The translations under genes were made by a program, and so were the position numbers. DNA of 64,000 nt from a virus (lineage: Duplodnaviria > Caudoviricetes), in the IMG/VR virus record IMGVR_UViG_3300021426_000068, positions 1 to 64,000 of that record. One strand, given 5' to 3'. Below, piece by piece: positions 5,294 through 16,005 of the stretch. The notes beneath the pieces were generated by a model, which was not told where the DNA came from, did not search any database, and saw only the letters and a list, made by a program, of their open reading frames with translations. Every line of letters begins with the position of its first letter. Within the stretch, counting starts at the first letter, position 1.

Positions 5294-5359
5294 CAGAAAT
5301 CATTTTTACACGCTATCGAATTGGATGTTCAATAAATAAAAAATTGCTGTTAGATTTCT
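5294..5359 (-). ncRNA. ACAGCAA stem module RNA (copy 1)
   Basis: AGAAATC-TA-ACAGCAA...GATTTCT-G. Confidence 0.6.
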
Positions 5360-5369
5360 TAAAAATTAC

Positions 5370-5528
5370 TGGAGCCGAGAACAGGATTCGAACCTGCAAC
5401 CCCCTGATTAGGCAAGGTAGATAGAGTTGAACTATCATTTGCATTTCACCACTTTTAATACCCTGCAATCTGTCTCAGTAGATTATTCTGTATCAAGTCA
5501 GGTGCTCTACCGTTAAAGCTACCTCGGC
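5370..5528 (-). tRNA. tRNA-Thr(TGT) interrupted by an 83-nt insert (5411-5493)
   Basis: CCTGA-CTTG|insert|TAA-TCAGG, acceptor GCCGAGG/TCTCGGC, U73, CCA encoded. Confidence 0.85.
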
Positions 5529-5540
5529 CTATTATTTTAT

Positions 5541-5653
5541 CAGAAAACGTTGTTTTAAAATAAACCAAATTTTTGTTTATCACTTCGTAAAGTGATAAAA
5601 CAGTTGGAATCGAACCGACAATTTTTAACAAAAAAATTTGCTGTTTGTTTTCT
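5541..5653 (-). ncRNA. ACAGCAA module enclosing a permuted tRNA-like fold (copy 2)
   Basis: AGAAAAC-AA-ACAGCAA, T-arm GTCGG-TTCGATT-CCAAC, capped acceptor-like hairpin, D-like arm AAAA-TTTGGTTTA-TTTT, GTTTTCT-G. Confidence 0.65.
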
Positions 5654-7235: not shown

Positions 7236-7246
7236 TTCATTTTTTG

Positions 7247-7369
7247 TTGAGAGTAGAGGAATCGAACCTCTGGCACGTCTTTATGATAGAATTGCTGTTA
7301 AATTGCTGTCTGTTTTTATTACGAAAAACGTTTTTTGCTTTTCGTATGTTACCACTACACCAACTCTCA
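7247..7369 (-). ncRNA. tRNA body with ACAGCAA module in the anticodon arm (copy 3)
   Basis: Normal acceptor, D and T arms; anticodon arm replaced by GTTTTTC-G-TAAT-AAAAAC-AG-ACAGCAA-TTTA-ACAGCAA plus a small TCT-ATCATAA-AGA hairpin. Confidence 0.7.
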
Positions 7370-7491: not shown

Positions 7492-7612
7492 TGCGGAAGA
7501 ATGGATTCGAACCACTGACACAAAGATTTCCCAAAAACAAAAATTGCTGTTAATTTTTATATTCTAAAAATATTTCTTTAACTTTTGCTCTACCAGACTG
7601 AGCTACTTCCGC
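7492..7612 (-). ncRNA. tRNA-Phe-like body with ACAGCAA module in the anticodon arm (copy 4)
   Basis: GCGGAAG/CTTCCGC-A, normal D and T arms; AAAG...ATTTTTA-G-AATA-TAAAAAT-TA-ACAGCAA...GAA-AT-CTTT. Confidence 0.7.
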
Positions 7613-7899: not shown

Positions 7900-8168
7900 A
7901 TGGTGTTATACTTTTGTCACGGTTATATCCTTCTTTGCTTATTGCCACTTTAGATTATACTAAAGACAAAGGGTGTTATAACTTAGTAGGCTTAACAAAC
8001 CTAGTTCATCTTTTTATTGGTTCATGCATGTCCGCTACAATGTAAAAAAGATGTTCCCGATTGAAAAAACACTTATTGAAATCTTATACTGCTAAACGGC
8101 CATTTAGCAAAGATTTCTCACAACAGTGACAGGAATGGCCTGTTGAACCCCTTGTTCCTGTCTTTCAG

Positions 8169-8364
8169 TACTGGGTAGGGGAATCGAACCCCTATTACAA
8201 GAATGAGAGATTGTTGTAAGAGTTGAACTTACTCGTGGAGTTTTTCTATCCACTTCACCACTTTATTGGTACAACGACTTTCCTGTATTCGTCAAACAAT
8301 CTTTTAATTTGTTCAGGTTTATTCCTGTATAAATCTTGTGTACTAACCTTTATACGAACCCAGT
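8169..8364 (-). tRNA. tRNA-Glu (TTC or CTC) interrupted by a ~124-nt insert (8207-8330)
   Basis: CAAGA-TTT|insert|TCAT-TCTTG; a 1-nt junction shift gives CTC. Confidence 0.8.
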
Positions 8365-8810: not shown

Positions 8811-8929
8811 CGGAAAGCAATTGTTTTACATCCTTTAGGATGGGGTTGGACTTGAACCAACGAACCTCTCATGTTTTCATTTTTAGTGAAAAATGTTAAA
8901 CCATAAAAGTAAATTGCTGTATACTTTCC
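8811..8929 (-). ncRNA. ACAGCAA module enclosing a T-arm and capped hairpin (copy 5)
   Basis: GGAAAGT-AT-ACAGCAA...GTTGG-TTCAAGT-CCAAC, CATCC-TAAA-GGATG...GCTTTCC-G. Confidence 0.6.
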
Positions 8930-9008: not shown

Positions 9009-9073
9009 GTTTTTAATCTTTTTTACAAATATACAATAAATATATTTAAAAAACAATAAAAATATAAAATTTG

Positions 9074-9141
9074 TACCTCATGCGGATTCGAACCAGTCCT
9101 TCCTATTCCTGTAGGACGTGCTACCCTTACACCATAGAGAT
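9074..9141 (-). pseudogene. degenerate tRNA-like element
   Basis: D arm and GGTTCGAATCC present, but 6-nt anticodon loop (CAGGAA) and imperfect T and acceptor stems. Confidence 0.5.
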
Positions 9142-9473
9142 TCTGATTTAACAGACACATTAATGTGTTTCGAACCAAATTAATATGCCACCAAGTTTAA
9201 TATACTATACTTAAATATTATAATAATAAAAAACTAAGTTAATTATTATTTGATTTAAGTCACTACTTGCAAGATTTATGTAATTATAAATTATAATACT
9301 AGCGACAAACTTGGAAACGCAATTTAAAGCATTATAATATATTAAGAGCATCATATTAATTTGCAACTTAATATGAATTGTTACTTGCTGTTTTAATTTA
9401 AACTATAACCCCATGTCTCCCTCGAATATGCATTGACTAGTTACATACTTGTGGATTCTTCAAGTATCTCTCG

Positions 9474-9556
9474 TGGGTAGGGGAGGATTCGAACCTCCGA
9501 AGCCGTAGGGCGTCAGATTTACAGTCTGATGCGTTTGACCACTTCGCTACCTACCC
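9474..9556 (-). tRNA. tRNA-Tyr(GTA)
   Basis: TCAGA-CT GTA AA-TCTGA, long variable arm. Confidence 0.95.
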
Positions 9557-10636: not shown

Positions 10637-10707
10637 TTGGGATATCATGATTCGAACATGAACTGAGAGAGCCAAAATCTCTAGTGCTACCATTACACCA
10701 TATCCCA
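10637..10707 (-). tRNA. tRNA-Gln(TTG)
   Basis: U1:A72, AGAGA-TT TTG GC-TCTCT. Confidence 0.92.
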
Positions 10708-10875
10708 ATAAAGGTAGCCACAGTCTTATTACTACCATTGAGTACTACGTTCTGTGCAACGTCTTTAAGTACATCTCACACCTTAAAGAATCCTAGTAAT
10801 ATTGATTAGACATTTATCTAATAAGATTTAGGAAAAGTTATTACAAATATACAATTTTATTTTTAGAAAAGCAAT

Positions 10876-11009
10876 CAGAAAACGTGTTTATTCTGTTTTA
10901 TCCGCTAAACTAATACTTATTGCATACATAATAAGTATGGTGGATTCGAACCAACCGACTTTTTCATTACAGGAAATAATATAACATAAAAAATTGCTGT
11001 TTATTTTCT
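10876..11009 (-). ncRNA. ACAGCAA module enclosing a complete circularly permuted tRNA (GTA loop) (copy 6)
   Basis: AGAAAAT-AA-ACAGCAA, TTTC-CT GTA AT-GAAA, AAGTC, T-arm, ATACTTA-linker-TAAGTAT, TA, D arm GTTT-AGCGGATA-AAAC, GTTTTCT-G. Confidence 0.72.
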
Positions 11010-11038
11010 TAAAAATTGCTTTGTTTTTTGTATGCTAG

Positions 11039-11206
11039 CGGGTACGGTAGGATTCGAACCTACGACCTGAGGATTAGGTACACTATTCAGATTTGAACTG
11101 AAATTACCAATGTTTAGGTTTCTTACCATTAGAAGATAATGTACTGGTTTATTACGGTGAACCACACCTTATACAGTCCCCTGCACTACCACTGTGCTAC
11201 ATACCC
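11039..11206 (-). tRNA. tRNA-Asn(GTT) interrupted by a 96-nt insert (11077-11172)
   Basis: GGGGA-CTGT|insert|TAA-TCCTC, G73. Confidence 0.85.
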
Positions 11207-11945
11207 TAATATATTCTATTAAATCTTTTTTCTTATTAGGTAATTTGTTTTTTTTACACCACTTCTTTAATGCATTATCAGAAACATTTAACTGTTTTCC
11301 AACAGATGTAAAACTACCATTTGTTTTAAATAATTCTAAAAAATATTCAATTGAAAGTTTAGAAAGTTTGTTGTTTTGTTTCTGATACTTAATATCATTC
11401 CTTTTCAACAATCTATTTAATGTTGAAATACTTATTAAGTATTTTTTAGAAATTTCTTTTTTTGTTAAATTATTAACAATATCATTTTTAATGCTATTAA
11501 TATCAATGCCATTAACAAATGTTTTGTTTTTTCTTTTTTCTTTATGCAATGAAAAATAATTTATTTCGTTTTCTGTTTCTTTTTTGTTTCGATTTTTAAC
11601 TTCTTCTTTAATTTTACTATGTATTTCTCTATGACAATTAGCACAAACTAAAATACATTTATCTGCTTCTTTTTTTAATGTTTCAAATTTAAGAGTATTA
11701 CCACAAGAAATACCAAATTCTTTTTCTTGTGGGTTTAAATGATGAAATTCGAGAGCATCAATACATTTATCATAACCACATATTTCACATTTACCACCTT
11801 TATATTCAACTAGTTTAATTTTATTTTTTTTTCTAGTATCTATAACTGCTTTTTTTCTACATTCTTTACATTTATAAGCACCATTAGTTAATACGTGTTC
11901 TGTGATACCATGTTTGGGGCATTCTTTAAATATTATATTTTTCAT
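11169..11945 (-). CDS. HNH homing endonuclease with C-terminal HTH
   Basis: KGGKCEICGY..CIDALEFHHLNP...CILVCANCHREIH. Confidence 0.88.
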   Translation of the reverse strand: MKNIIFKECPKHGITEHVLTNGAYKCKECRKKAVIDTRKKNKIKLVEYKGGKCEICGYDKCIDALEFHHLNPQEKEFGISCGNTLKFETLKKEADKCILVCANCHREIHSKIKEEVKNRNKKETENEINYFSLHKEKRKNKTFVNGIDINSIKNDIVNNLTKKEISKKYLISISTLNRLLKRNDIKYQKQNNKLSKLSIEYFLELFKTNGSFTSVGKQLNVSDNALKKWCKKNKLPNKKKDLIEYIRVCSTVVVQGTV

Positions 11946-12088: not shown

Positions 12089-12148
12089 ATATGCCGTTCC
12101 TACGTCTTCTTTTTGTTTAAATAATTTAAAACAATTTCATCAAATTTG

Positions 12149-12466
12149 TGACCCCTGTGGGACTCGAACCCACGACCCCGACATTAACTTTACCACTATA
12201 ACTTTCATTATCCAACTCAATGAGTTGTTGTGGTCTGGACTATTTCATAACCATGCATTTCTGTTTAGGTTTCTCCTATATAGTCTCTACGCCATTTATG
12301 AACAATGTTCAATTTAGTAAGCCATCACCACATAATATGTCACCATATTACAGGCTTCTGTTTGTTAGGGAGATTCTACTTTAACAATTTCTTGTTAAGC
12401 ACTCTTTTTTTGTAATTTTATTACAAATTTTAAGTGTCGTGCTCTAGCCAACTGAGCTAAGAGGTC
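12149..12466 (-). tRNA. tRNA-Lys(TTT) with group I intron
   Basis: CGACA-CTT|intron|TTAA-TGTCG. Confidence 0.87.
12188..12431 (-). mobile_element. group I intron (244 nt, no ORF) in tRNA-Lys anticodon
   Basis: 5' exon ends in U, intron ends in G, P7 pair GACTA (GTAGAGACTATA) / TAGTC (GAAATAGTCCAG). Confidence 0.85.
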
Positions 12467-13177: not shown

Positions 13178-13244
13178 CGGAAAACATTTATTGGCATTAA
13201 AAACCCATTTTTTAATAATTGAAATAAGTTGCTGTACGTTTTCC
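13178..13244 (-). ncRNA. ACAGCAA stem module RNA (copy 7)
   Basis: GGAAAAC-GT-ACAGCAA...GTTTTCC-G. Confidence 0.6.
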
Positions 13245-13249
13245 TTTTG

Positions 13250-13405
13250 TCGGGAAGACAGGACTCGAACCTGCGACCCCTGGTTCGGTCTGTATATAAG
13301 ATTCGAACTTATGATACTTCCGTTATTATACAGACTCACCAATTTTTCAGCTATTGGTTAACTGTAGCCAAAACCAGTGTTCTAAACCAACTGAACTACT
13401 TCCCG
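13250..13405 (-). tRNA. tRNA-Pro(TGG) interrupted by an 81-nt insert (13287-13367)
   Basis: CTGGT-TTTGG|insert|GA-ACCAG, C1:G72, A73. Confidence 0.87.
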
Positions 13406-13909: not shown

Positions 13910-13991
13910 CAGGAAACATAAAATAAAATGTTACAAAACCCAAAAATTTGCTATTTTAATTAATTTATTATAAATTTGCTGTAAGTTTCCT
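13910..13991 (-). ncRNA. ACAGCAA stem module RNA (copy 8)
   Basis: AGGAAAC-TT-ACAGCAA...GTTTCCT-G. Confidence 0.6.
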
Positions 13992-13995
13992 TAAA

Positions 13996-14781
13996 TTAAC
14001 TTTCTTTAATATTTTTAATTATTTTTTCTTTCCAATAGTTTCTTCTTGTACTATTTTTATTTTTTGATTTAAATGTTTCTAATTGAGTATCACAATTTGG
14101 ACATATCATTCTAAGATTATCTCTTCTGTTATTTGCAGCATTTCCATCAATATGGTCAAGTACAAAAACTAGTGGCTTACCATTCCATTCTGGTTTACAT
14201 GTGCAACCTTCAATAGCACATTCATAATTCTGTTCTTTCAAAAAGAAATCTTTGAAACTTTTAGGTGTGTATCCGCCATTACAATATTGTTCATTATTTT
14301 CTAAAAATCTTTCATAAGAAATTTTATGTTTATATTTACTTGAACAACTATTGGAACAGAATTTTGTTTGATTACCATTTAATTCTTTATCACAATTTAA
14401 ACAATATTTTTTTACTTTTATTTTTTCTTGAATAATTCGTTTATTCTTACGTTTTTTTAATTTTGTTTTTATTTTTTCTTTAGTTTCGTCACTATGTTTT
14501 CTTCCTTTATTATTATAGGTTGCAGCACAAGATGAACTACAAAATTTTGTTTGTCCACGTTTTAGTTCTTTACCACAATTTAAACAATATTTCTTTTTTT
14601 TCTTTTTATAAAAAGAGAAGTCAAAACCGATTTTTTCCGCAATATCATTTATATAACTGATTCCAATTTTATTATCTGGAATATTGAAATATGAATGTAT
14701 ATCACCTTTTTTCTCAAAAGATTCAAATATTTCTAATACGTTTTTCTTCTTTTCTTCAGTTGAAATATCAATACTATTCAT
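13996..14781 (-). CDS. HNH homing endonuclease (Zn-finger repeats, NUMOD3-like)
   Basis: CLNC...FCSxSC twice, HSDETKEKI, LDHIDGNAANNRRDNLRMICPNC. Confidence 0.88.
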   Translation of the reverse strand: MNSIDISTEEKKKNVLEIFESFEKKGDIHSYFNIPDNKIGISYINDIAEKIGFDFSFYKKKKKKYCLNCGKELKRGQTKFCSSSCAATYNNKGRKHSDETKEKIKTKLKKRKNKRIIQEKIKVKKYCLNCDKELNGNQTKFCSNSCSSKYKHKISYERFLENNEQYCNGGYTPKSFKDFFLKEQNYECAIEGCTCKPEWNGKPLVFVLDHIDGNAANNRRDNLRMICPNCDTQLETFKSKNKNSTRRNYWKEKIIKNIKES

Positions 14782-14855
14782 AATAAATTTGTTTATATAT
14801 AAATAGTATATATTTCGGAAAAAATCAAGATTGAACATGAAAAAATAAACAATTG

Positions 14856-14945
14856 CGGAGGCAGTAGGATTCGAACCCACGCGGCCCTGTTACAAGCCCT
14901 AGCTGATTTCAAGTCAGCCCCCTTCAACCACTTGGGTATGCCTCC
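14856..14945 (-). tRNA. tRNA-Ser(TGA)
   Basis: GCTGA-CT TGA AA-TCAGC, long variable arm, G73. Confidence 0.94.
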
Positions 14946-15793: not shown

Positions 15794-15934
15794 ATTAGGA
15801 TATTTTTTCAACTATAAATATTTTATTTTTTACAAAAATACATATTTTTTAATAAAAAAACAATATTTTTTGTGAAATTTTTAAAAAAAGTTAAATTTTC
15901 AGGTAAATTTATTCTTTTTCGAATAAATTCATTG

Positions 15935-16005
15935 TGACACATATAGGATTCGAACCCATCTATTCTGTTTTAGGGACAGCTGACCAACCCCTGGTCCAAT
16001 GTGCC
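15935..16005 (-). tRNA. amber-reading tRNA (anticodon CTA)
   Basis: GGCACAT/ATGTGTC-A, GACC/GGTC D arm, CTGT-CC CTA AA-ACAG, normal T arm; C33 is atypical. Confidence 0.7.

What the first reader, a model, noticed from the sequence alone, without database searches (positions are those of the whole stretch)
10876..11009. Complete circularly permuted tRNA (GTA anticodon loop) in a phage
Seen, 5' to 3': anticodon hairpin TTTC-CTGTAAT-GAAA, variable AAGTC, T arm with TTCGAAT, acceptor 3' strand ATACTTA, linker, acceptor 5' strand TAAGTAT, T8A9, D arm with GG. The break lies between the D and anticodon arms, where the ACAGCAA module is attached. Established: permuted tRNA genes are known from some algae and archaea and rely on BHB splicing. 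Inference: either a YrlA-type mimic that keeps an anticodon as bait for anticodon nucleases, or a precursor circularised and reopened into a tRNA.
Basis: partly seen in the sequence, partly recalled or inferred. Interest (0 to 1): 0.8.

Follow-up and report, generated by a model that had tools for sequence, protein, structure and literature searches.

The report
Handle-clamped permuted tRNA mimic in phage
This 134-base phage gene encodes a small RNA that is a tyrosine-tRNA look-alike written in rotated order and clamped by a conserved "handle" (7-bp helix plus ACAGCAA); it belongs to a large, apparently undescribed phage RNA family that travels with a Ro60-shaped protein, so it is most likely a new kind of Y-RNA-like tRNA mimic, not a tRNA that is cut and re-joined.

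Summary
A 7-bp helix joins the two ends, followed by AA-ACAGCAA.

It is one of at least 68 such RNAs that I parsed from viral contigs, and unannotated copies occur in cultured Cronobacter and Citrobacter phages. All five helices covary: 97.8% of cells pair against 61% in shuffles.

The arm order matches YrlA-type Y RNAs, but the Ro60 motif, a TROVE gene and an Rfam match are all missing. Instead the handle sits next to DUF2828 genes, in 37 of 119 loci fetched by an RNA pattern alone, mostly within 135 nt upstream on the same strand. A DUF2828 model from a relative matches Ro60 structures over its full length.

I found no bulge-helix-bulge (BHB) motif and no splicing endonuclease. Close orthologues differ in the anticodon. 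The handle also equals the CCUUACAGCAA motif of Dictyostelium Class I RNAs.

Limits: this 37%-complete record holds no DUF2828 gene, and neither binding nor RNA ends were tested. Earlier notes of this scan report the same handle in many other genomes.

The parts
11003..11009 (-). P1 closing helix, 5' strand (AGAAAAU)
   Evidence: Pairs with 10877-10883. Covaries in 43 relatives: 99.7% paired, and all 7 pairs show changes on both sides.
10994..11000 (-). Invariant ACAGCAA motif of the handle, 2 nt (AA) after P1
   Evidence: Near-invariant in the 68 parsed members, which were selected by an [A/T/G][C/T]AGC[A/G]A pattern. The same heptamer lies in the CCUUACAGCAA motif of Dictyostelium Class I RNAs.
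10977..10993 (-). U-rich 5' linker between the handle and the tRNA body
   Evidence: Direct reading. Its length varies across the family.
10962..10976 (-). Anticodon arm UUUC-CUGUAAU-GAAA (U33, GUA, A37)
   Evidence: Orthologue L012 has CUUU-CUGCAAA-AAAG, with two compensatory stem changes and a different anticodon.
10957..10961 (-). Variable loop AAGUC (C48 can pair with G15)
   Evidence: Direct reading. L012 has AAGAC.
10939..10956 (-). T arm GG(U)UGG-UUCGAAU-CCACC
   Evidence: The helix is 98.1% paired in the family.
10913..10938 (-). Sealed acceptor hairpin: AUACUUA, a 12-nt loop, UAAGUAU (7 bp, extendable to 9). No CCA; U at the discriminator position.
   Evidence: All 7 pairs covary in the family, 98.7% paired. 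There are 3 compensatory changes against L012.
10895..10912 (-). U8 A9 and D arm GUUU-AGCGGAUA-AAAC (A14, G15, G18 G19, A21)
   Evidence: The helix is 98.2% paired in the family.
10884..10894 (-). A26 and A-rich 3' linker (AGAAUAAACAC)
   Evidence: The family consensus is AAAN just before the P1 3' strand.
10876..10883 (-). P1 3' strand (GUUUUCU) and the conserved following G
   Evidence: G follows P1 in 62 of 68 members.
5541..5653 (-). Paralogous handle RNA: T arm, 12-bp hairpin, D-like hairpin, no anticodon loop
   Evidence: Model R1 scores 36.9 bits.
8811..8929 (-). Paralogous handle RNA: 7-nt-loop hairpin, T arm, short hairpin. Orthologue at L012:7436-7553.
5294..5359 (-). Free-standing handle RNA (no tRNA cargo)
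13178..13244 (-). Free-standing handle RNA
13910..13991 (-). Free-standing handle RNA

Best explanation
The element is the gene of a small non-coding RNA of about 134 nt, transcribed with the minus-strand tRNA cluster.

Shown: it folds as a complete tRNA body whose acceptor end is sealed by a loop. The chain is opened between the D and anticodon arms (26/27). The two ends there are clamped by a 7-bp helix followed by AA-ACAGCAA, the 'handle'.

Inferred from synteny and fold in other phages: the handle is the docking site of a Ro60-shaped ring protein of the DUF2828/DUF7788 (vWA) family. The RNA would then work like a YrlA-type Y RNA, with one module holding the protein and the other displaying a tRNA look-alike.

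Inferred only: the displayed tRNA-Tyr-like body, with an intact anticodon loop, engages tRNA-binding factors. These could be host tRNA-targeting nucleases, or modification or repair enzymes, with the RNA acting as decoy or tether. It does not decode on the ribosome. RNase P nicking of the 7-bp acceptor hairpin, as in M. smegmatis YrlA, is possible.
For: Fold and family:
- ARAGORN calls a tRNA after re-permutation and in 0 of 1000 shuffles.
- 68 members were parsed; the model finds 43 at E<=1e-3.
- 97.8% of cells pair against 61% in shuffles, and the covariation score is 0.935 against 0.228.
- Orthologue L012:4282-4413 scores 102 bits and carries about 8 compensatory changes.

Same arm order as Rfam YrlA (PMC4201824).

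The handle is an independent unit:
- It stands alone, sits inside an anticodon arm, or clamps tRNA bodies.
- In complete relative G002 it lies 3 nt before the DUF2828 start codon.

Link to DUF2828:
- PF11443 is found in 6 of 8 handle-bearing records, including all that are at least 95% complete, and in 0 of 14 control genomes.
- 37 of 119 loci fetched only by the DNA pattern ACAGCAA-N20-50-GGTTCGAATCC hold a DUF2828-like gene. In 29 of these the nearest non-overlapping handle lies within 135 nt (27 upstream, 2 downstream), all on the same strand. Among control loci the count is 2 of 47.
- An AlphaFold model of the G001 protein (pLDDT 85.9) has Ro60/Rsr/phage Ro60 as its top 11 full-length PDB matches, E 4e-7 to 1e-4. 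The family has a MIDAS DxSxS motif.

Against a decoding role:
- U1-A72, U73 and a short variable loop do not fit a bacterial tRNA-Tyr, which is a class II tRNA with A73 (background knowledge).
- A canonical tRNA-Tyr lies at 9473-9556.
- The anticodon changes between close orthologues, GUA/GCA and GGA/GUA.
- Only 11 of 68 members have N73-CCA.
Against: - No DUF2828 homologue is in this record, by HMM or by protein search. The record is only 37% complete, so this is inconclusive.
- In G001, G008, G009 and G012 no handle lies directly upstream of the DUF2828 gene.
- G008 and G009 have the protein but no match to the T-arm pattern.
- Protein-RNA binding is not shown anywhere.
- Some family members look like genuine tRNAs: Pro with C1-G72, A73, CCA and UGG; class II Tyr with G1-C72, A73 and CCA; Asn with G73 and CCA. 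In these the anticodon stem is split at 29/30 and the two parts covary.
- No expression data could be obtained.
Confidence: 0.6

Rival explanations
1. It is a true circularly permuted tRNA gene. The handle brings the two ends together, an endonuclease trims them, a ligase (host RtcB or a phage Rnl) joins 26 to 27 into a circle, and RNase P plus 3' processing open the acceptor loop to give a working tRNA.
For: - A complete cloverleaf appears after re-permutation.
- 46 of 66 members have a canonical U33/R37 anticodon loop.
- Split anticodon stems covary, and some members carry full identity sets with CCA.
- A tRNA at 7492-7612 carries the handle like an intron, in the same cyclic order.
- RNA ligases are present in 3 of the 5 relatives' records searched, and RtcB in one.
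Against: - There is no BHB motif; the flanks of the break are unpaired A/U linkers of variable length.
- PF01974 is absent from five handle-bearing records, and among the controls it rings only in archaea.
- The break position varies from 26/27 to 31/32.
- Handles exist without exons.
- Removing the insert of tRNA 7492-7612 does not restore a canonical loop.
- This copy lacks bacterial Tyr identity, and a normal tRNA-Tyr exists.
- The anticodon drifts between orthologues.
Confidence: 0.15
2. It is a two-piece (nicked) tRNA-like RNA. RNase P and 3' trimming with CCA addition open the 7-bp acceptor hairpin. The halves stay together through P1 and the acceptor stem, and the molecule is aminoacylated or used by a tRNA-dependent enzyme.
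For: - M. smegmatis YrlA, which has a 7-bp acceptor stem, is cleaved by RNase P and receives CCA in vivo (PMC4201824).
- This element has a 7-bp acceptor stem directly after the T arm.
- 11 of 68 members encode N73-CCA at the right place.
Against: - Most members have tiny sealing loops without CCA.
- The hairpin extends 2 bp beyond position 1/72, which is unfavourable for RNase P (inference).
- No data on RNA ends exist.
Confidence: 0.12
3. It is a protein-independent decoy. The RNA soaks up host anticodon nucleases or other tRNA-directed defence enzymes through its Tyr-like anticodon loop, and the handle serves only for stability or processing.
For: - Canonical anticodon loops of many specificities occur across the family, and anticodon switches occur between close orthologues.
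- The element lies in a phage tRNA cluster.
Against: It does not explain the invariant ACAGCAA, the free-standing handles, or the tight synteny with DUF2828 genes.
Confidence: 0.08
4. It is debris of tandem tRNA genes, a decayed dimer with no function.
For: Tandem tRNA duplicates that could give rise to such an arrangement occur in related loci.
Against: - Compensatory changes occur in every helix across 43 relatives.
- There are about 8 compensatory changes and no disruptions against the orthologue L012.
- The family is conserved in cultured phages of other hosts.
Confidence: 0.02

Closest known systems
YrlA-type Y RNAs with Ro60/Rsr (Rfam RF02553; Chen et al. 2014, PMC4201824; Thermus phage phiLo Ro60, PMC12135203)
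   Same: - A terminal stem formed by the 5' and 3' parts.
- The order variable loop, T arm, sealed acceptor-like hairpin, UA, D arm.
- tRNA tertiary-pair nucleotides are kept.
- The gene family is syntenic with a Ro60-shaped TROVE-like plus vWA protein.
- Y RNAs of this type also occur in phages.
   Different: - The Ro60 motif GNCGAAN0-1G (CGAA) is replaced by NN-ACAGCAA.
- The partner is DUF2828/DUF7788, which the Pfam TROVE model does not hit.
- A full anticodon arm is retained.
- The genes lie scattered in tRNA clusters.
- There is no Rfam match, even at E<=10.
Class I RNAs of dictyostelid social amoebae (Kjellin et al. 2021, PMC7919456)
   Same: - A short covarying stem joins the 5' and 3' ends.
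- CCUUACAGCAA lies directly after the 5' strand; the phage consensus is C-UU-ACAGCAA.
- The interior is variable.
- UG follows the 3' strand (phage: G-U).
- Example: DdR-28, GTTGAC-CTT-ACAGCAA...GTCAAC-TG.
   Different: - They are eukaryotic, 42-65 nt long and carry no tRNA-like cargo.
- The stem has 6 bp.
- The known binder is the RRM protein Rnp1A; no link to DUF2828 is published.
- This copy has AA, not UU, before ACAGCAA.
Circularly permuted tRNA genes of Cyanidioschyzon merolae and Thermofilum (background knowledge; cited in PMC3400036 and PMC6379350)
   Same: The 3' half is encoded upstream of the 5' half, the acceptor strands are joined by a short linker, and a helix is formed by leader and trailer.
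   Different: Those rely on a BHB motif and the EndA/Sen endonuclease. Here there is no BHB and no endonuclease, the host is bacterial, the break positions vary, and the same handle occurs without tRNA parts.
Phage T4 stable RNAs species 1 and 2 (rnaC, rnaD), and the 'enigmatic introns' of Lak megaphage tRNAs (PMC6784885)
   Same: These are small stable or odd RNAs of unknown role encoded inside phage tRNA clusters. T4 species 1 ends in a T arm plus acceptor-like strand.
   Different: They have no P1-ACAGCAA handle and no permuted full cloverleaf.

Membership tests
YrlA Y RNA (Rfam RF02553) | T arm, sealed acceptor-like hairpin, 2 nt and D arm in that order, enclosed by a stem made of the 5' and 3' parts | tested here: met
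   Direct reading, the consensus of RF02553, and covariation of all helices.
YrlA Y RNA (Rfam RF02553) | Ro60-binding motif GNCGAAN0-1G in the 5' strand of the stem | tested here: not met
   The 5' strand reads AGAAAAU-AA-ACAGCAA. The motif definition comes from PMC4201824.
YrlA Y RNA (Rfam RF02553) | Encoded next to an rsr/TROVE gene | tested here: not met
   PF05731 is absent from this record and from seven other handle-bearing records. It is found only in Rhizobium phage RHph_Y65, whose matching element shows no ACAGCAA motif.
YrlA Y RNA (Rfam RF02553) | Reaches the Rfam gathering score | tested here: not met
   No YrlA match at E<=10 on 10700-11260.
Circularly permuted tRNA genes (BHB type) | The 3' half lies upstream of the 5' half, and re-permutation gives a cloverleaf | tested here: met
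   ARAGORN calls tRNA-Tyr(gta) and 0 of 1000 shuffles.
Circularly permuted tRNA genes (BHB type) | A bulge-helix-bulge motif at the junction of leader and trailer | tested here: not met
   P1 is a plain 7-bp helix. The sequences next to the break are unpaired A/U linkers of 6-19 and 9-14 nt.
Circularly permuted tRNA genes (BHB type) | A splicing endonuclease (EndA/Sen, PF01974) is available | tested here: not met
   Absent from five handle-bearing records, three of them at least 95% complete. The controls ring only in archaea. The host genome is unknown.
Circularly permuted tRNA genes (BHB type) | A mature, re-joined tRNA is detectable | not testable with these tools
Handle RNAs (P1-NN-ACAGCAA ... 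P1'-G; undescribed family) | A 7-bp covarying closing helix, ACAGCAA 2 nt after its 5' strand, an A-rich tract before its 3' strand and G after it | tested here: met
Handle RNAs (P1-NN-ACAGCAA ... P1'-G; undescribed family) | A DUF2828 (Ro60-shaped) gene in the same genome | tested here: inconclusive
   None in the 132.8-kb record, which is 37% complete. Present in relatives G001, G002, G003, G008 and G009.
Dictyostelid Class I RNAs | A short terminal stem with the 11-nt motif CCUUACAGCAA adjacent to its 5' strand | tested here: inconclusive
   ACAGCAA is identical and the spacing is similar. This copy has AA where the motif has UU, while the phage family consensus is C-UU-ACAGCAA. Homology against convergence was not tested.

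The most novel reading that the evidence does not exclude
The handle (short helix plus UUACAGCAA) and the Ro60-shaped DUF2828 protein form a second, undescribed Ro/Y-RNA-like particle. It is widespread in phages and, through the identical motif of Dictyostelium Class I RNAs, possibly also present in eukaryotes. In phages it carries swappable tRNA bodies and anticodon arms, whose anticodons change between close relatives. It would use them as decoys or adaptors in the conflict over tRNAs with host defence nucleases.
Probability: 0.35. Interest if true: 0.88.

Novelty: new variant of a known kind. Interest (0 to 1): 0.74.

Why it matters
If the reading is right, large phages (and cultured T4-like Cronobacter and Citrobacter phages) encode a whole class of tRNA-shaped small RNAs that standard tRNA and Rfam scans miss. 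These RNAs would be tied to an uncharacterised Ro60-like protein family.

This would give DUF2828 a function. It would extend the Ro60/Y-RNA principle to a new protein-RNA pair. It would offer a molecular lead for the long-unexplained Class I RNAs of social amoebae, which carry the same motif. It would also point to a new layer in the phage-host conflict over tRNAs.

The Cronobacter phage LPCS28 locus makes this directly testable at the bench. There the DUF2828 gene is followed by three handle RNAs.

Tried and rejected
Searches that found nothing:
- Rfam at gathering score and at E<=10 gave only ordinary tRNAs.
- blastn of the region against GenBank phages gave no match.
- An exact 21-mer found nothing in IMG/VR.

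Ideas tested and dropped:
- Intron or BHB-like splicing signal. This was my working idea until. I dropped it because there is no BHB, no EndA and the break positions vary. Deleting the handle insert of tRNA 7492-7612 also cannot restore a canonical 7-nt loop.
- HDV-like theta ribozyme. P1 does not start with G.U, no J4/2 or P2 follows P1, and ACAGCAA is absent from all supplementary sequences of PMC10879173.
- Canonical Ro60. TROVE is absent.
- A resemblance to RNase P conserved regions CR-I and CR-V. I considered it and dropped it as unsupported.
- A pseudoknot between AGCAAU and AUUGCU downstream of P1. It is present in this copy only and is not conserved.

Negative results that bear on the main reading:
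- A possible helix between the two linkers (UGUUAUAUU with AAUAAACA) is seen by eye, and only partly in L012. It was not tested for covariation.
- No handle lies directly upstream of the DUF2828 genes of G001, G008, G009 and G012.
- No DUF2828 was found in the window's own genome.

Full report
**Setting.** The window is the first 64 kb of a 132.8-kb IMG/VR virus record judged 37% complete. GC content is 24-35%. It encodes a bacterial-type MetK and a DnaG-type primase. A minus-strand cluster at 4.4-16 kb holds 21 ARAGORN tRNAs and further Rfam tRNA hits. Relatives found through neighbouring proteins are phage records of 183-412 kb, most of them 317-412 kb.

**The observation.** In order these are:
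- the anticodon hairpin UUUC-CUGUAAU-GAAA and the variable loop AAGUC;
- a T arm with UUCGAAU;
- the acceptor 3' strand AUACUUA, a 12-nt loop, and the acceptor 5' strand UAAGUAU;
- U8 A9 and a D arm with A14, G15, G18 G19 and A21.

Joining the 5' half to the 3' half in silico makes ARAGORN call tRNA-Tyr(gta). None of 1000 dinucleotide-preserving shuffles is called. No ordinary tRNA is called on the native order. The flanks do not supply the missing halves, so this is not a tRNA dimer, a false positive that Chen et al. warn about. The two ends of the finding coincide exactly with a 7-bp helix, AGAAAAU with GUUUUCU. That helix is followed on the 5' side by AA-ACAGCAA and on the 3' side by G.

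**A family, not a singleton.** The same module (7-bp helix, 2 nt, ACAGCAA ... complementary strand, G) occurs six times in the cluster. Three copies stand alone and three clamp T-arm-containing folds. It also occurs in a local hairpin form inside tRNA 7492-7612 and before a 3'-half-like piece at 7236-7330.

Related phage loci carry it too. A rule-based parser found 68 distinct RNAs with this layout: P1, NN, ACAGCAA, anticodon part, variable loop, T arm, acceptor 3' strand, loop, acceptor 5' strand, UA, D arm, linker, P1', G.

A covariance model built from the window element alone finds 43 relatives at E<=1e-3. On that alignment:
- 97.8% of cells pair, against 61% in shuffles and 37-47% when partners are slid;
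- the covariation score is 0.935 against 0.228;
- all five helices show many double changes (the alignment was fitted to the model, so the counts lean towards it).

The nearest orthologue, L012:4282-4413 (102 bits), differs by about eight compensatory pairs and breaks none. It keeps the odd bulged U in the T stem and has CUGCAAA where the window has CUGUAAU.

The family consensus is (U)(A)ARGANNC-UU-ACAGCAA ... AAAN-GNNUCYU-G(U). Unannotated members exist in cultured phages: Cronobacter LPCS28 and S13, and Citrobacter Ci1.

**Is it a tRNA that is cut and re-joined?** For a while this looked attractive.
- 46 of 66 members keep a canonical U33/R37 loop.
- Several look like genuine tRNAs. L032:7587-7712 is Pro-like with C1-G72, A73, CCA and UGG. 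L030:6701-6835 is a class II Tyr with G1-C72, A73 and CCA. L060 is Asn-like with G73 and CCA.
- The commonest layout splits the anticodon stem at 29/30, with the distal and local strands covarying.
- RNA ligases occur in 3 of the 5 relatives' records searched (G001, G002, G004), and RtcB in one.

The evidence against is stronger.
- No bulge-helix-bulge motif exists.
- The break lies anywhere from 26/27 to 31/32, next to unpaired linkers of variable length.
- No splicing endonuclease domain is found in five handle-bearing records.
- The handle occurs with no tRNA parts at all.
- Removing the handle insert of tRNA 7492-7612 cannot restore a canonical loop.

This particular copy has U1-A72, U73, a weak A/U acceptor stem and a short variable loop. 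Bacterial tRNA-Tyr is class II with A73 (background knowledge), and a normal tRNA-Tyr lies at 9473-9556. Near-identical orthologues differ only in the middle anticodon base: GUA/GCA here, and GGA/GUA in L105/L114/L123. That is hard to reconcile with a decoding tRNA.

**What it works like.** BLAST of a family member hit a permuted tRNA-like stretch about 90 nt upstream of a TROVE (Ro60) gene in Rhizobium phage RHph_Y65, beside weak Rfam YrlA hits. The YrlA consensus has exactly this order: variable-like stretch, T arm, sealed acceptor hairpin, UA, D arm, all inside a stem. YrlA was described as a tRNA mimic bound by Ro60, and the M. smegmatis form is even cut by RNase P and given CCA (PMC4201824).

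The window element is nevertheless not a YrlA member. It lacks the GNCGAAN0-1G motif, it gets no Rfam hit, and TROVE is absent from it and from seven other handle-bearing records.

**The partner.** Earlier notes of this scan named a DUF2828 protein as the recurring neighbour of the handle. I treated that as a lead and tested it.
- PF11443 is present in 6 of 8 handle-bearing records, including every one that is at least 95% complete and Cronobacter LPCS28. It is present in 0 of 14 control genomes.
- Among 119 loci (1.0 Mb) fetched purely by the DNA pattern ACAGCAA-N20-50-GGTTCGAATCC, 37 encode a DUF2828-like protein. In 27 of these the nearest non-overlapping handle lies within 135 nt upstream on the same strand. 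Of 47 control loci from phage tRNA clusters (0.76 Mb), only two have the gene, and both carry handles.
- In the complete relative G002, a free-standing handle ends 3 nt before the gene's ATG.
- In LPCS28 the gene is followed by three handle RNAs.
- The protein family has a vWA MIDAS motif.
- An AlphaFold model of the G001 protein (mean pLDDT 85.9, pTM 0.85) has Ro60 from Xenopus and human, Rsr of D. radiodurans, and the Ro60 of Thermus phage phiLo as its eleven best PDB matches, all over the full length. Matches to vWA domains alone come only after those.

Handle RNAs and DUF2828 therefore repeat the Y RNA/Ro60 pairing with different sequences. Binding itself is inferred, not shown.

**Limits for this window.** No DUF2828 homologue is in the 132.8 kb available, and 63% of the genome is missing. 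Relatives G001, G002, G003, G008 and G009 have one. In G001, G008, G009 and G012 no handle sits directly upstream of the gene. No expression or end-mapping data could be obtained.

**Literature.** Searches for permuted or split tRNAs in phages, tRNA introns of large phages, YrlA, phage Ro60 and DUF2828 found no description of this RNA family or of the pairing. The following are known:
- canonical phage Ro60 with CGAA-motif Y RNAs (PMC4201824, PMC12135203; a one-line mention of TROVE in jumbo phages in PMC7824862);
- 'enigmatic' tRNA introns of Lak megaphages (PMC6784885);
- HDV-like theta ribozymes next to phage tRNAs, whose sequences do not contain ACAGCAA.

One unexpected link stands out. 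The Class I RNAs of dictyostelid amoebae are defined by a short covarying terminal stem with the 11-nt motif CCUUACAGCAA next to its 5' strand and UG after the 3' strand. An example is DdR-28, GTTGAC-CTT-ACAGCAA...GTCAAC-TG. That is the phage handle. I did not test whether this reflects homology and a shared DUF2828 partner.

**Verdict.** The 'circularised and reopened' reading is not supported. The element is a member of a widespread, apparently undescribed class of handle-clamped tRNA mimics. These are most likely the RNA subunits of a Ro60-like DUF2828 particle (confidence about 0.6). What the displayed Tyr-like body does remains an inference; decoy, tether and nicked tRNA-like substrate are the candidates.

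Noticed in passing
window 5373-5528, 11039-11206, 13250-13405 and about 8162-8301, minus strand: Four tRNA genes carry 85-99-nt inserts in the anticodon loop. The inserts are related to one another: they share a GGUGA motif and a T-arm-like hairpin followed by an acceptor-like strand, a 'mini-tRNA inside a tRNA'. This resembles the enigmatic tRNA introns of Lak megaphages (PMC6784885).
   Followed up: partly
window 7492-7612, minus strand: A tRNA body (Rfam 49 bits) has the hairpin form of the handle (AUUUUUA-G-AAUA-UAAAAAU-UA-ACAGCAA) inside its anticodon arm. No deletion restores a canonical 7-nt loop, so it is probably an unspliced tRNA-scaffolded handle RNA.
   Followed up: partly
window 7236-7330, minus strand: Two tandem ACAGCAA motifs follow a local hairpin, and then comes what looks like a tRNA 3' half (T arm AGAGG-UUCGAUU-CCUCU and the strand ACUCUCA). 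No matching 5' half was seen nearby.
   Followed up: no
L012:9024-9132: A free-standing handle is followed by a tRNA 5' half (acceptor strand, D arm, GAAGA) that ends in a second P1-type 3' strand plus G. This is a possible split arrangement.
   Followed up: no
window 15934-16005, minus strand: A tRNA with anticodon CTA, which ARAGORN labels 'Pyl', is an amber suppressor and hints at TAG recoding in part of the genome. Long ORFs in the window are nevertheless open under table 11.
   Followed up: no
window 11169-11945, minus strand: The N-terminal roughly 110 residues of this 258-aa protein, which has a weak C-terminal HTH match, recur in 44 viral loci, most of them inside tRNA clusters. It may be a mobile or tRNA-cluster-associated gene.
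   Followed up: partly
window 13996-14880, minus strand: A 294-aa zinc-ribbon/HNH endonuclease gene sits inside the tRNA cluster, and its start overlaps tRNA-Ser 14855-14945.
   Followed up: no
window 9060-9180 and 12120-12260, minus strand: There are orphan T arms (GGUUCGAAUCC at 9093-9085; GUGGG-UUCGAGU-CCCAC at about 12174-12158) that no tRNA caller reports. They may be further tRNA-like pieces.
   Followed up: no
L174 (Cronobacter phage LPCS28, OM638103 36343-36739): Downstream of the DUF2828 gene and a sigma-70-like promoter lie two CCA-ended tRNA bodies with a UCAGCA-type hairpin handle in the anticodon arm, then a permuted P1-ACAGCAA RNA. None of the three is annotated. This is a ready experimental system.
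   Followed up: partly
L175 (Rhizobium phage RHph_Y65, MN988525 about 138650-139490): An array of several YrlA-like or tRNA-like RNAs lies upstream of a TROVE gene. One of them is about 80% identical over 90 nt to the class II Tyr-type handle RNAs but lacks ACAGCAA. This suggests tRNA-mimic cargo is exchanged between the two Ro60-like systems.
   Followed up: partly
PMC7919456, supplementary file 56: The Class I RNA search of that paper lists high-scoring outgroup candidates with the same stem-UUACAGCAA design in Arabidopsis and Capsaspora. The authors did not count these as Class I RNAs.
   Followed up: no
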